From the NCBI RefSeq assembly GCF_009914755.1, contig NC_060931.1: a stretch of DNA of 64,000 nucleotides; one strand, given 5' to 3'. Origin of the DNA: the human T2T-CHM13v2.0 reference genome, Homo sapiens. This document shows positions 44,156-64,000 of this stretch, one piece after another (the first letter of the stretch is position 1; every line of letters begins with the position of its first letter). The position numbers and the translations under genes are program-made. A model generated the notes under the pieces. The model saw only the letters and a program-made list of their open reading frames with translations. It made no database searches and was not told where the DNA came from.

Positions 44156-44276
44156 CTGGAGAAGAGCAGAGAATGTGCTGTCTGCGGTCCCAGTAGCGCA
44201 CAGCCGCCTGTGATGGAACCTGGGGCCACCACTGCTCCAGGCCCTTGCGATTATAATGAAAGGTTTGTGGGGAATT
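44156..44276 (-). CDS. PKD1L1: PKD1L1 exon 5 (IPHKPFIII...SALLQ), 121 nt
   Basis: Acceptor cccatacag, donor CAG|GTTGGT, in frame. Confidence 0.9.
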
Positions 44277-49065: not shown

Positions 49066-49178
49066 CTATCAGCACTGTTATCACAATCCAGAGGCGCCTG
49101 TGTTTTTTCATTAACAACAGCCTGTGTTTTTTCATTAACAACACTTAACGCTGCTTCACTAGTTGTTTTCCAAATGTT
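49066..49178 (-). CDS. PKD1L1: PKD1L1 exon 4 (NIWKTTSE...DNSADR), 113 nt
   Basis: Acceptor ttcttacag, donor AG|GTATGT, in frame. Confidence 0.92.
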
Positions 49179-52412: not shown

Positions 52413-52537
52413 CTTCTGCCTGGAAGCTGATGAGGATGGGCTCTGTGATTCCCGGTCTTCTGCCTTTCCATTCAGAGCACACCAAGGACAGCCACACTTC
52501 CCATCACTCATAAGAAGCACATGATTAGCATAGACCT
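52413..52537 (-). CDS. PKD1L1: PKD1L1 exon 3 (EVYANHVLL...SRQK), 125 nt
   Basis: Acceptor tttctctctag, donor AAG|GTATTC, in frame. Confidence 0.93.
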
Positions 52538-55604: not shown

Positions 55605-55720
55605 CGACCCACAATCCACCTCCAGGAGGGCTACAGCTGCACAGATGAAGACCCCAGCTCTTGTCAGTGCTCACAGACAGCTCACCACCAAAGGAAAGGC
55701 AGCAGGCAGCCTGGAGACAC
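55605..55720 (-). CDS. PKD1L1: PKD1L1 exon 2 (CLQAACC...GGGLWV), 116 nt
   Basis: Acceptor tttcccttag, donor G|GTAAGG, phases 2/1 match neighbours. Confidence 0.93.
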
Positions 55721-60607: not shown

Positions 60608-60651
60608 CTTTCCTGGTCATCAGAAATGTTCTGGGCTGCCTCCTCGGCCAT
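60608..60651 (-). CDS. PKD1L1: PKD1L1 exon 1, coding part (MAEEAAQNISDDQER), 44 nt
   Basis: ATG in strong Kozak context gacATGG; donor AG|GTGAGT. Confidence 0.92.
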
Positions 60652-60887
60652 GTCCTGTGCAAGCTGGTCACAAGTATGACAGTCAGCAGACCAGCTTCTT
60701 CCTACATCCTCTGGAAGACAAAGAAATAGAGCTTAATGCTTCCAGCTTCTGTACTTGTGACCTCTTATCAGGACACACATCAAACACAGAGGGAAAAATC
60801 CAAACTCCAGTAACATTTTCCCAAGCAGAAACAGCTTTTGTTTTCCTAACACTGTCAGACAAATTCCTTCCTAAGAAGTGTGCTTTT

Positions 60888-61189
60888 GACAGACGTGGTG
60901 GCTCATGTCTGTAATCCCAGCAATTTGGGAGGCCAAGGTGGGTGGATCACTTGAGGCCAGAAGTTTGAGACCAGCCTGGCCAATATGGTGAAACCCCGTC
61001 TCTACTAAAAATACAAAAATAGCCAAGTGTGGTGGCACACATCTGTAATCCCAGTTACCCAGGAGGCTCAGGCGAGAGAATTGCTTGAACCTAGGAGGTG
61101 GAGGTTGCAGTGAGACGAGATTGCACCACTGTGCAATAGAGTGAGACTCTGCCTCAAAAACAAAACGAAACAAAACAAAACAAAACAAA
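60888..61189 (+). mobile_element. Alu (S-type)
   Basis: Dimeric Alu, (AAAAC)n tail, TSD aagtgtg(c/t)ttt. Confidence 0.92.
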
Positions 61190-61299
61190 AGTGTGTTTTA
61201 GGTAGGGATCTTTGTGGCTGCCTGAAACAGATCACTACTCAAGGGAGAGACTGTACATGGAAGCTGAGAGAAGTCTGAGAATAAAAAGCTGTAACTGTT

Positions 61300-61717
<418 letters not shown>

Positions 61718-62749
61718 TTACGGCAGAACCTAGGAATGATCTGGTTCCGAACCTCCTGCACCTCTCCTTGTTTGCAACTGGCGGGTCAGACTGAGTTCTC
61801 TCCATTACGAAACATTTTCTCTTATATTTTTAAAGCACTTGTTAGTTGTCTTAGTTCTTTATACCAACATTTAAACCTTCAGAGATTTTAGAAAACTTAA
61901 TGTTTTACTCAGAATACTAGATATTTTTTCTCTCCACTCTGAAGAGAGTGATACCAAGAAGAGTGGGAACGTTTTCAGGCACAAGCTCTTTCTCAGATGG
62001 GAACACAGACCCCTTGAACAATGATGAACCAAGCTACGGGTGTCCGGCCTTGGATCCTGTGTTTTCTGGAACTTTGCTGCCAATGAGGTGAGTAACCAGA
62101 GCCCTGTGGTGGGTTAAGGGGCCTGCTGTTGACCTAACACACCTGTCTCCTGGGGCCTGCTGCCACCTCTGCTCTTCTCACACTGCCTTGTCAGTGCCTC
62201 TGGCTTTGTCCCCACTGTGCTTGTTGTGAGTAAATCTCAGATTTGGGGGAAATGCATACTTTCCAATTTCATTAGCAATACACTTTCAAATGCGCCTGTG
62301 ACCAAGAAAAGGATAAACTGCAAACTGCAGTTTGTAAACGAACAAAATCCCTTCTTTCTGAAGCCCCTGTGATTTGCTCTGACACCTTCCTGTCAAATCT
62401 AAACAGAGTCCACTGGGTAAAGACACCTGTGCAACCCTGCCTGCTGGGCTGGCATCCATACCCACACGCACACCTGGATGCTCTGACCTTGCTGCTGCCT
62501 GTTCCTTCCTTGTGGGGCTGGACATCCTGAGAACAGGGCCTACATTTAAAGTTTGTGATGTTTTTGAAGCCAGCAGTGCTAACCAAAGATGCCAGGAAAT
62601 GAGGAGGAGCAAAGAAAGTGACATAATTGAGGGAAGAAATATGCCTGCACTGCCCTACGTGGGAGGCACTCTCATAGCCACTCTCATAGCCACTCTCAGC
62701 TACTGGAGCTTAAGTTACTTACAATTAAATAGAATTAAGAATTAGCTGG

Positions 62750-62987
<238 letters not shown>

Positions 62988-64000
62988 TCAGTAGCCAAGA
63001 TACAAACTATACAATGTTTCCATCATTGCAGAACACCCTCGGGGCCAGCGCTGGGCTGGGCAGCCTCGCCTTTTTCCGGGCAGTGCGGCCAGCATTGTTT
63101 CCTCAGAGCAGCTGCATCCAGACAAGGGAGGGGTTCCCAGTTCATCTACATTCTTGGGCCATACTCCTCCACCTGGGGTTTGCCGAGCACTGCACTGGTA
63201 CAACAGGGAGCACAACACAGAACCAAACTCACTGCTTCCCTCCCGAGGACGGAGGGGTGTGCTGCTTAAGGTGAGACGTGGATGCAGCCAAGCAAACTGG
63301 AAAACATCGAGTTTTGAAAACTGCTTTAAGTAAAAATATTCTGAATAAAATTAGGTAAATGGCTTCCAAATATGGCCCATTTTAAGAAATCACTATCTAA
63401 GCTCCTCATTTAGAAACAAAGACTCGATCAGGATTTTGACTCTCCTTATGACCTTGATGAAAGGAGGAAAAAACACAAGAAAAATCATTTCTTTGCATGA
63501 AATCAATGTGCAAGGACGGAACCCCCTGGCTGGAAGAGATCCTGGGAGGTCTTTCCCTTTGTCTTCATTGTTTTAAACAAAAGCCACCTCCTTAGAATTT
63601 GTTTTTAAGCCACATTCTGTATTTCAGATTTAATACTTAGTTTCTAAAACTGCTTCTTAGGTGATAGTTCACTTAGTCAACCCCTGCCTTACTCCACAGA
63701 CTTAAGGTGTTTAGTATGCACATAGTTCAGAATGAATACCTGAAAGTAGGTAGCACTGCCTGAAGACTTTCAGTAGTCAAAGTAGAAAAGCAAACACAGG
63801 TGTTTACACAGTTCACAGTGTAAAAAGGCACAGAGCTGCAGTTTACACAGCACAGGGTTCCTCCTCAGATGGAAACTTCAGCAATTGTTCTCACATGGGT
63901 TTTCATACTTGAAGATGTAATAGATGGCATTTAATGATACTAAGTTTCAGATTTGGGGAAATATTACATTTGCAACTCAGGCAAGTGTATACATAAAATA

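What the first reader, a model, noticed from the sequence alone, without database searches (positions are those of the whole stretch)
60608..60745. The start-codon exon looks like an internal exon: splice acceptor and open Cys-containing frame upstream of the ATG
Seen: on the minus strand, 59 nt upstream of the ATG, lies agcattaagctctatttctttgtcttccag| (pyrimidine tract plus CAG; AG at 60711-60712). From there the frame is open and in phase 1 into the ATG: xDVGRSWSADCHTCDQLAQD-MAEEAAQ. The N-terminus MAEEAAQNISDDQER is acidic with no evident signal peptide, although a large ectodomain follows. There is no CpG island or obvious TATA box, and an Alu begins about 180 bp upstream of the acceptor. 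The Cys-rich stretch ends CSCSPPGGGLWVEVY, reminiscent of the GG...VY end of WSC domains; PKD1 has a WSC domain. Inference: an unannotated or lost upstream exon supplies the true N-terminus, or the acceptor is used by read-through from the upstream gene.
Basis: partly seen in the sequence, partly recalled or inferred. Interest (0 to 1): 0.72.

Follow-up and report, generated by a model that had tools for sequence, protein, structure and literature searches.

The report
Missing signal-peptide exon of human PKD1L1
The annotated first exon of the human PKD1L1 gene is really a second coding exon: an exon 3.75 kb upstream, kept across mammals, encodes the signal peptide that the reference protein lacks.

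Summary
On the minus strand a strong splice acceptor (AG at 60712-60711) lies 59 nt upstream of the reference ATG (60651). The frame from it into that ATG is open in phase 1.

The hub table already lists an exon 60608-60710 for the second RefSeq transcript, so the acceptor itself is not new.

What I added: I read the next 9 kb of the same chromosome. At window-continued 64582-64465 there is a unique, open exon. It encodes a textbook signal peptide and ends in phase 1 at ATG|GTAAGT, which joins in frame to 60710.

- A gorilla database model starts with this exon pair and matches it at 111 of 112 residues.
- 26 of 120 listed relatives, from marsupials to placentals, carry the same signal-peptide N-terminus.
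- A profile of 26 non-hominid N-termini hits only these two human segments among 3610 (E 2.9e-11 and 4.5e-10; next 0.28).

Reading: the reference start codon is probably internal, and the reference mRNA is 5'-truncated or made from an alternative promoter. The WSC resemblance is not supported. The exon pair is already in ortholog gene models, so this is mainly an annotation and clinical-interpretation matter. No human transcript data were available.

The parts
60711..60740 (-). Splice acceptor: pyrimidine tract ctatttctttgtcttcc plus AG (60712-60711). The exon starts at 60710.
   Evidence: score 8.45, among the top 20 of 5136 AGs. The hub table lists exon 60608-60710 for another transcript.
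60652..60710 (-). 59 nt that the reference mRNA treats as 5'UTR or leaves out. Here it is read as coding, in phase 1: (E)DVGRSWSADCHTCDQLAQD.
   Evidence: One search gives the translation. In one search the ortholog profile hits the segment 60732-60607 with E 4.5e-10, and the alignment starts at the acceptor. In one search, 27 of 120 relatives cover this stretch.
60608..60651 (-). The annotated coding part of the exon (MAEEAAQNISDDQE...). Its ATG at 60651-60649 is read here as an internal Met. The donor is AAG|GTGAGT.
   Evidence: donor score 12.11; hub table.
64000..64000 (-). POINTER ONLY. The parts below lie beyond the window's end, and the form does not accept their coordinates. Window numbering is continued; L009 = window 64001-73000 = C7:48114001-48123000.
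(a) Upstream coding exon, 64465-64582. It encodes MLISSPIGAACLQMGWRGLIAALPLLSLVQPALGTSSKD plus 1 nt. Candidate starts are the ATGs at 64582 and 64543. An in-frame TGA at 64585-64583 closes the frame on the 5' side. The ATT at 64564-64562 is where many orthologs have their initiator Met.
(b) Its donor GT, 64464-64463 (ATG|GTAAGT).
(c) An old repeat that looks like an LTR, about 66523-66896, containing the RefSeq 5' end of the gene at 66591.
   Evidence: (a) (unique in the genome). E 2.9e-11.
(b): score 9.95; beats 14 of 17 annotated donors; 19 of 4170 GTs score as high. The langur model P0002 uses the same exon end.
(c): at least 40 other copies at 66-78% identity.
60890..61165 (-). Alu, antisense to the gene. 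It ends about 180 bp upstream of the acceptor. A second Alu lies at about 61293-61622.
   Evidence: hub repeat list.

Best explanation
Exon 60710-60608 is the second coding exon of PKD1L1. The first coding exon lies 3.75 kb upstream, at window-continued 64582 (or 64543) to 64465, about 0.5 kb beyond the window's end.

That exon encodes an N-terminal signal peptide. It has a hydrophobic core GLIAALPLLSLV and a small-residue motif A-L-G, so the likely cleavage is before TSSKD. It ends after the first base of a codon at a GTAAGT donor. Splicing to the acceptor at 60710 makes GAG, and the frame then runs through DVGRSWSADCHTCDQLAQD into the reference Met.

On this reading the functional protein is 59 (or 46) residues longer than the reference. 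It enters the ER by a cleavable signal peptide, as a protein with an N-terminal ectodomain of about 1750-1780 residues should. The reference mRNA, whose 5' end (60677) falls 33 nt inside the exon, would be a 5'-truncated cDNA or the product of a minor internal promoter.

Shown: the exon, its phase, its splice signals and its homology to ortholog N-termini. Inferred: that human cells make this splice, which ATG is used, that the peptide is cleaved, and that the signal-less form is non-functional.
For: 1. Anatomy. The exon is open from the ATG at 64582, an in-frame TGA lies directly 5' of it, and 1 spare nt precedes ATG|GTAAGT. This phase matches the 2 nt that begin exon 60710.
2. Splice signals are strong: donor 9.95, acceptor 8.45.
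3. The exon is single-copy.
4. Joined by coordinates, the human exons match the first 112 residues of gorilla model P0184 at 111 positions.
5. Of the 120 relatives listed, 26 cover the signal-peptide core, 27 cover the 19 codons upstream of the human ATG, and 24 cover both. They include rodents, bats, carnivores, shrew and mole, rhinoceros, xenarthrans and a possum (names).
6. A profile built from 26 non-hominid N-termini was run against 3610 six-frame segments of the 73 kb. It gives two significant hits, 64582-64331 (E 2.9e-11) and 60732-60607 (E 4.5e-10). The next best is E 0.28.
7. tblastn places Met-1 of P0063 and P0128 at 64564 (E 0.001 and 0.003).
8. The hub table shows a second RefSeq transcript that uses exon 60608-60710, in a gene whose span (to 66591) includes the upstream exon.
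9. Passages of bioRxiv 10.1101/2023.01.12.523739 report that an N-terminal tag on mouse PKD1L1 reaches the outside of the cell and is not shed. An upstream signal peptide would explain this.
Against: - I had no human transcript, CAGE or peptide data, so use of the 64465-to-60710 junction in human tissue is not shown.
- I could not see whether the second RefSeq transcript contains the upstream exon.
- The codon where 11 of 26 ortholog models start is ATT in human, and Ile sits at that position in the gorilla model. Initiation must therefore use the ATG at 64582 (T at -3, C at +4) or at 64543 (C at -3, G at +4). The reference ATG has the better context (G at -3, G at +4).
- No strong acceptor lies 5' of the exon (best score 3.94), and several out-of-frame ATGs lie just upstream.
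- 94 of the 120 listed models lack this N-terminus. Their starts are heterogeneous. All the models are gene predictions, and I do not know on what evidence they rest.
- My sequence-only chance control was weak. With loose thresholds about 0.3 signal-peptide-like, phase-matched ORFs are expected by chance in the 5.9 kb, and 3 were found.
- A search of proteins of 71-2000 residues with the exon peptide found only an unspliced genomic read-through.
Confidence: 0.8

Rival explanations
1. Start shift in hominids. The upstream exon was coding in the ancestor, but in human and gorilla the usual initiator became ATT. The exon would now serve only as 5'UTR, or not at all, and the human protein would really begin at MAEEAAQ, as the reference says.
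For: - ATT at 64564-64562 in human.
- Ile at that position in gorilla P0184.
- Met there in 11 of 26 other models.
- The reference ATG has the best context of the three candidates.
- The reference transcript starts at 60677 (hub table).
Against: - The frame is still open, and two in-frame ATGs each give a signal-peptide-like start.
- The proximal ATG (64543) aligns with the initiator of three rodent models: P0177, P0190 and P0201.
- A protein with a very long N-terminal ectodomain and no signal peptide is hard to place in the membrane. This rests on general knowledge and was not tested here.
Confidence: 0.14
2. Read-through from HUS1. The acceptor at 60710 would mainly serve transcripts that begin in the upstream gene HUS1, or in the repeat-borne start at 66591, and the region would be non-coding leader.
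For: - 2 of 120 listed models fuse HUS1 to PKD1L1. In the Microtus model the HUS1 part joins directly to the equivalent of the extended exon.
- The RefSeq 5' end at 66591 lies in an old repeat.
Against: - Both fusions are submitters' gene predictions.
- Read-through does not explain why the signal-peptide exon and its frame are kept from marsupials to placentals.
Confidence: 0.04
3. Chance. The acceptor-like motif and the open frame would be accidental, and the exon a true first exon.
For: A 19-codon open frame has a chance of about 0.4. Signal-peptide-like ORFs are not rare in this DNA.
Against: Profile E-values of 2.9e-11 and 4.5e-10 on exactly these two segments, the 111 of 112 match to the gorilla model, and the annotated exon 60608-60710 (hub table).
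Confidence: 0.02

Closest known systems
Gorilla PKD1L1 gene model P0184 (2918 aa, named), with 25 other mammalian PKD1L1 models that carry the same N-terminus
   Same: The same exon pair, frame and signal-peptide core. The human exons joined by coordinates match gorilla at 111 of 112 residues. The signal-peptide core is shared by 26 of 120 listed models.
   Different: These are predictions in other species. The human reference protein starts 59 residues later. Most non-hominid models begin at the codon that is ATT in human.
The other human polycystin-1 family proteins (PKD1, PKD1L2, PKD1L3, PKDREJ)
   Same: A large N-terminal ectodomain ahead of 11 membrane spans (passages of PMC12799467). A passage of PMC1934368 states that hydropathy shows a signal sequence in all five human proteins.
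   Different: I did not examine their N-termini. The reference PKD1L1 start (MAEEAAQNISDDQER) is acidic, which does not fit that statement.
5'-incomplete reference cDNAs whose first ATG is internal (a general class of annotation error)
   Same: The 5' end of the mRNA falls inside an exon, 33 nt below a used acceptor. An open frame runs upstream of the ATG, and orthologs are longer.
   Different: Whether 60677 is a real minor promoter was not testable here.

Membership tests
Cleavable N-terminal signal peptide (Sec type) | An uncharged hydrophobic core of about 7-15 residues near the N-terminus, behind a neutral or positive n-region | tested here: met
   GLIAALPLLSLV has a 10-residue Kyte-Doolittle mean of 2.51 and follows an Arg. 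This was my own heuristic, not SignalP.
Cleavable N-terminal signal peptide (Sec type) | Small residues at -3 and -1 of a site shortly after the core | tested here: met
   A-L-G before TSSKD. Orthologs have P-G before ISSK. The rule is recalled (von Heijne).
Cleavable N-terminal signal peptide (Sec type) | Actual translocation and cleavage | not testable with these tools
   This needs expression with N-terminal sequencing or mass spectrometry.
Coding exon of PKD1L1 | Homology to ortholog protein sequence in the right frame and order | tested here: met
   (E 2.9e-11 and 4.5e-10; the only 2 significant hits of 3610 segments).
Coding exon of PKD1L1 | Splice signals and phase compatible with the neighbouring exon | tested here: met
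Coding exon of PKD1L1 | Presence in human mRNA | not testable with these tools
   No transcript data were on hand. The hub table shows only that exon 60608-60710 exists in a second transcript.
WSC domain (Pfam PF01822) | A match to the family profile | tested here: not met
   No hit at E up to 10 on the single exons, on P0002 or on P0003. No hit at E up to 1 on full-length P0184. A genome-wide six-frame search with PF01822 finds loci on contigs 12, 16, 17, 20 and 22 and none in this window.
WSC domain (Pfam PF01822) | Eight conserved cysteines in about 80 residues (recalled) | tested here: inconclusive
   Human exons 2-3 do have 8 Cys in 80 residues, but they are kept unevenly (8 of 18 up to 12 of 12 aligned models). 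The region is found in only 22 of 119 models. No fold was predicted.

The most novel reading that the evidence does not exclude
The human reference protein for PKD1L1 (the selected RefSeq transcript) lacks its first 46-59 residues, including the signal peptide. If so, human cDNA constructs built on it would be mis-targeted. Clinical pipelines for heterotaxy and biliary atresia with splenic malformation would also miss a coding exon and misread changes at the reference ATG as start losses. In addition, hominids have moved the initiator: the usual mammalian ATG is ATT in human and gorilla, which leaves a weak upstream ATG and a downstream ATG, possibly used by leaky scanning.
Probability: 0.6. 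Interest if true: 0.6.

Novelty: already known. Interest (0 to 1): 0.5.

Why it matters
PKD1L1, together with PKD2, is a candidate sensor of nodal flow, and its loss causes laterality defects (passages of PMC12799467).

If the working protein starts at the upstream exon, three things follow:
- Expression constructs based on the reference cDNA lack the signal peptide, which could explain poor surface delivery.
- Variants in 64465-64582, at its donor, or at the acceptor at 60710 would be coding or splice variants. Pipelines tied to the reference transcript do not score them.
- A change at the reference ATG would be a missense change, not a start loss.

The mouse UniProt entry also starts without this N-terminus, while other murid models have it. 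Tagging and knock-in designs in mouse may be affected as well.

Five full-text searches found no paper that discusses an upstream human exon. I saw only the search listings, plus passages of three papers that hold both search terms. The terms, each paired with PKD1L1, were: signal peptide; signal sequence; exon 1 with start codon; first exon; RACE.

Tried and rejected
- Sequence-only chance control. Among phase-1 donors with an ATG-ORF of at least 20 residues in 60712-66591, 3 of 5 looked signal-peptide-like by my loose rule. One was at 62473 and one lay inside an Alu. So the rule alone could not carry the claim. The ortholog profile later hit neither of those two.
- Protein search with the 40-residue exon peptide among longer proteins. 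It gave 1 hit of 26 candidates, P0001, an unspliced genomic read-through with TGA read as W.
- Search with exon 7 among longer proteins. It gave 2 hits.
  - P0002, a langur model, uses the same upstream exon end but in another frame and skips exon 60710-60608. In human that frame joined to 60710 gives TGA.
  - P0003 lacks the 5' end.
- The representative search with exon 12 was crowded by multi-PKD-domain proteins. Only 6 of the 150 listed hits looked like orthologs.
- I tried to infer selection from the langur model. I dropped this because only changes visible in its other-frame translation can be seen, and that biases the count.
- WSC: rejected.
- The ISEV abstract book holds PKD1L1 only beyond the text that is held.
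- No structure prediction or complex prediction was run.

Full report
**Observation.** On the minus strand the window reads ...ctatttctttgtcttccag|AGGATGTAGG..., with AG at 60712-60711. The reference ATG lies at 60651-60649, 59 nt downstream.

Of the three frames of 60710-60608, only the one that runs into the ATG is open. It reads DVGRSWSADCHTCDQLAQD, then MAEEAAQNISDDQE, preceded by two bases (AG). That is phase 1.

A 19-codon open frame is expected by chance about 40% of the time (my arithmetic). The acceptor is another matter. With a simple matrix of recalled frequencies it scores 8.45. That is better than 9 of the 16 annotated PKD1L1 acceptors in the window. Only 20 of 5136 AGs on that strand of the 73 kb do as well, and 7 of those are annotated acceptors.

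- An Alu ends about 180 bp upstream.
- No 300-bp window between 60300 and 66899 has CpG observed/expected above 0.53.

The hub table already lists an exon 60608-60710 for the second RefSeq transcript and puts the gene's 5' end at 66591. So the acceptor is in use by annotation. The open question was what lies upstream.

**The upstream exon.** The window's genome is held, so I fetched the next 9 kb (L009 = window 64001-73000). Reading the minus strand shows a stretch that ends ...AAGGATG|GTAAGT.

Translated, it gives a stop and then MLISSPIGAACLQMGWRGLIAALPLLSLVQPALGTSSKD, with one spare base before the donor.
- One spare base plus the AG that opens exon 60710 makes GAG, so the two exons join in frame.
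- The peptide has the build of a signal peptide: an Arg, an uncharged hydrophobic core GLIAALPLLSLV, then A-L-G.
- The TGA directly 5' of the first ATG (64585-64583) means the frame cannot reach further upstream. This would be the first coding exon.
- The donor scores 9.95, better than 14 of 17 annotated donors. Only 19 of 4170 GTs reach it.
- The stretch 64380-64800 is single-copy in the genome.

**A control that did not settle it.** I scanned 60712-66591 for phase-1 donors preceded by an ATG-ORF of at least 20 residues.
- There were 5 such donors, and 3 looked signal-peptide-like by my loose rule.
- Over both strands and all phases of the 73 kb, the loose rule fires 23 times. That is about 0.3 expected in the 5.9 kb search space.
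- Only with strict, after-the-fact thresholds is the candidate nearly alone: 2 hits, the other inside an Alu.

So sequence features alone gave a p-value somewhere between 0.01 and 0.3.

**Orthologs settle it.** A search of the representative library with exon 12 returned mostly multi-PKD-domain proteins, but also a few single-match, high-identity relatives.
- Two of these, P0063 and P0128, begin with a hydrophobic N-terminus followed by ...GSWSSDC... and ...GSCWADC....
- tblastn of their first 120 residues against the 73 kb places residues 1-25 of P0063 at 64564-64490 (E 0.001) and residues 1-34 of P0128 at 64564-64463 (E 0.003, its best hit). The next parts fall on 60696-60607 (E 0.09) and 60702-60607 (E 1.8), which are weak on their own.
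- P0065 aligns across 60723-60607 (E 0.028).

A named search with P0128 (naked mole-rat), residues 1-600, listed 120 proteins. 119 are mammalian PKD1L1 models and one is an unrelated metagenome protein.
- The gorilla model P0184 (2918 aa) starts MLISSPIGAACLQMGWRG... It matches the human exons, joined by coordinates in a script, at 111 of 112 positions.
- By blastp at E up to 0.001, 26 of the 120 cover the signal-peptide core, 27 cover the 19 codons upstream of the human ATG, and 24 cover both.
- The 26 include rodents, bats, carnivores, a shrew, a mole, a rhinoceros, an anteater, a sloth, gorilla and a brushtail possum.
- The other 94 have assorted, mutually unrelated starts, or start further in.

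The cleanest test used a profile HMM built from 26 non-hominid N-termini, with gorilla left out. I ran it against all 3610 stop-to-stop six-frame segments of at least 12 residues in the 73 kb.
- Exactly two hits were significant: minus 64582-64331 (E 2.9e-11) and minus 60732-60607 (E 4.5e-10, with the alignment starting at the acceptor).
- The third best had E 0.28.
- The rival candidate at 62473 was not hit.

**Which start codon.** In the alignment, 11 of 26 models begin with a Met that tblastn places on human 64564-64562. That codon is ATT in human, and the gorilla model has Ile at that position. Three rodent models begin at the Met that matches the human ATG at 64543.

A langur model (P0002) uses the same exon end but in another frame, and it skips exon 60710-60608. 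Reading back from it suggests that langur has ATG where human has ATT. This is inference only.

Human therefore has two usable starts:
- 64582, with a weak context.
- 64543, with G at +4.

Both give a signal-peptide-like N-terminus. The reference ATG at 60651 has the best context of the three (G at -3, G at +4). That keeps alive the rival view that hominids shifted to the internal start.

**5' side.** No good acceptor precedes the exon; the best score is 3.94. The exon may be a first exon with a CpG-poor promoter, or an internal exon with a weak acceptor.

The RefSeq 5' end at 66591 lies inside an old interspersed repeat. At least 40 other copies match it at 66-78% identity. It looks like an LTR, but I did not determine the family. 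I could not see whether the second RefSeq transcript includes the signal-peptide exon.

**WSC.** No Pfam family matches the N-terminal exons singly, nor P0002 or P0003, at E up to 10. Full-length P0184 shows REJ, PKD, PLAT, polycystin and channel domains, but nothing before residue 659 at E up to 1.

A genome-wide six-frame search with PF01822 finds loci on contigs 12, 16, 17, 20 and 22, and none in this window.

Exons 2-3 do carry 8 Cys in 80 residues. These are kept unevenly, and the region is found in only 22 of 119 models. No fold was predicted, so a very remote likeness is not excluded.

**Literature.**
- Passages of bioRxiv 10.1101/2023.01.12.523739 report that N-terminal tags on mouse PKD1L1 are functional, reach the extracellular space and are 'not shed as a signal peptide'. 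This fits a tag that sits downstream of an unrecognised signal peptide, though the paper does not say so.
- A passage of PMC1934368 states that hydropathy shows a signal sequence in all five human PKD1-family proteins. The acidic reference start does not bear this out.
- Passages of PMC12799467 give the family topology and the size of the ectodomain.
- In five searches I found no paper on an upstream human exon. I saw listings, plus passages of the papers named here and of PMC5318412. Subscription papers, including the original PKD1L1 cloning paper, are not in the library.

**Verdict.** The annotated start-codon exon is an internal coding exon, and a conserved upstream exon supplies a signal peptide. 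The exon pair already exists in ortholog gene models and lies within the RefSeq gene span, so the feature is known at database level. What is not settled is whether human cells use it.

My estimates are:
- 0.8 that the extended, signal-peptide-bearing protein is the functional human form.
- 0.14 for a hominid shift to the internal start.
- Small remainders for read-through and for chance.

The practical weight lies in construct design and variant interpretation.

Noticed in passing
window 60707-60702, minus strand: Right after the acceptor the exon reads AGG ATG TAG, a start-stop mini-ORF in frame 0. It could matter only for transcripts in which this stretch is leader.
   Followed up: no
L009:2523-2896 (window-continued 66523-66896): The RefSeq 5' end of PKD1L1 (66591) lies inside an old interspersed repeat with at least 40 genomic copies at 66-78% identity. 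This suggests a start borne by a transposable element.
   Followed up: partly
L009:466-720, minus strand (window-continued 64466-64720): The upstream exon region is open in a second frame (MLMEAGKAH...GNQLKG). The langur model P0002 translates that frame. In human, joining it to 60710 gives TGA, so it would act as an overlapping upstream ORF if the mRNA starts that far 5'.
   Followed up: partly
P0241 (Microtus ochrogaster) and P0264 (Apodemus speciosus): Two rodent gene models fuse HUS1 to PKD1L1, and one of them also fuses SUN3. In the Microtus model the HUS1 part joins directly to the equivalent of the extended exon. These are probably merged predictions.
   Followed up: partly
P0174 (mouse UniProt entry): The mouse reference protein starts MDVDEDQH... 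and lacks the signal-peptide N-terminus. Other murid models (Arvicanthis P0181, Peromyscus P0177, Mesocricetus P0201) have it. The mouse entry may be 5'-incomplete too.
   Followed up: no
window 62473-62624, minus strand: A second signal-peptide-like ORF (MSLSLLLLISWHLWLALLAS...) ends in phase 1 at a donor that scores 8.77. The ortholog profile does not hit it, so it is most likely chance.
   Followed up: yes
window exons 55605-55720, 52413-52537, 49066-49178: Many ortholog models go from the extended exon straight to the equivalent of exon 44156-44276 (...ER|APHK...). They lack the Cys-rich exons 2-4. This part of the ectodomain is variable or alternatively spliced.
   Followed up: partly
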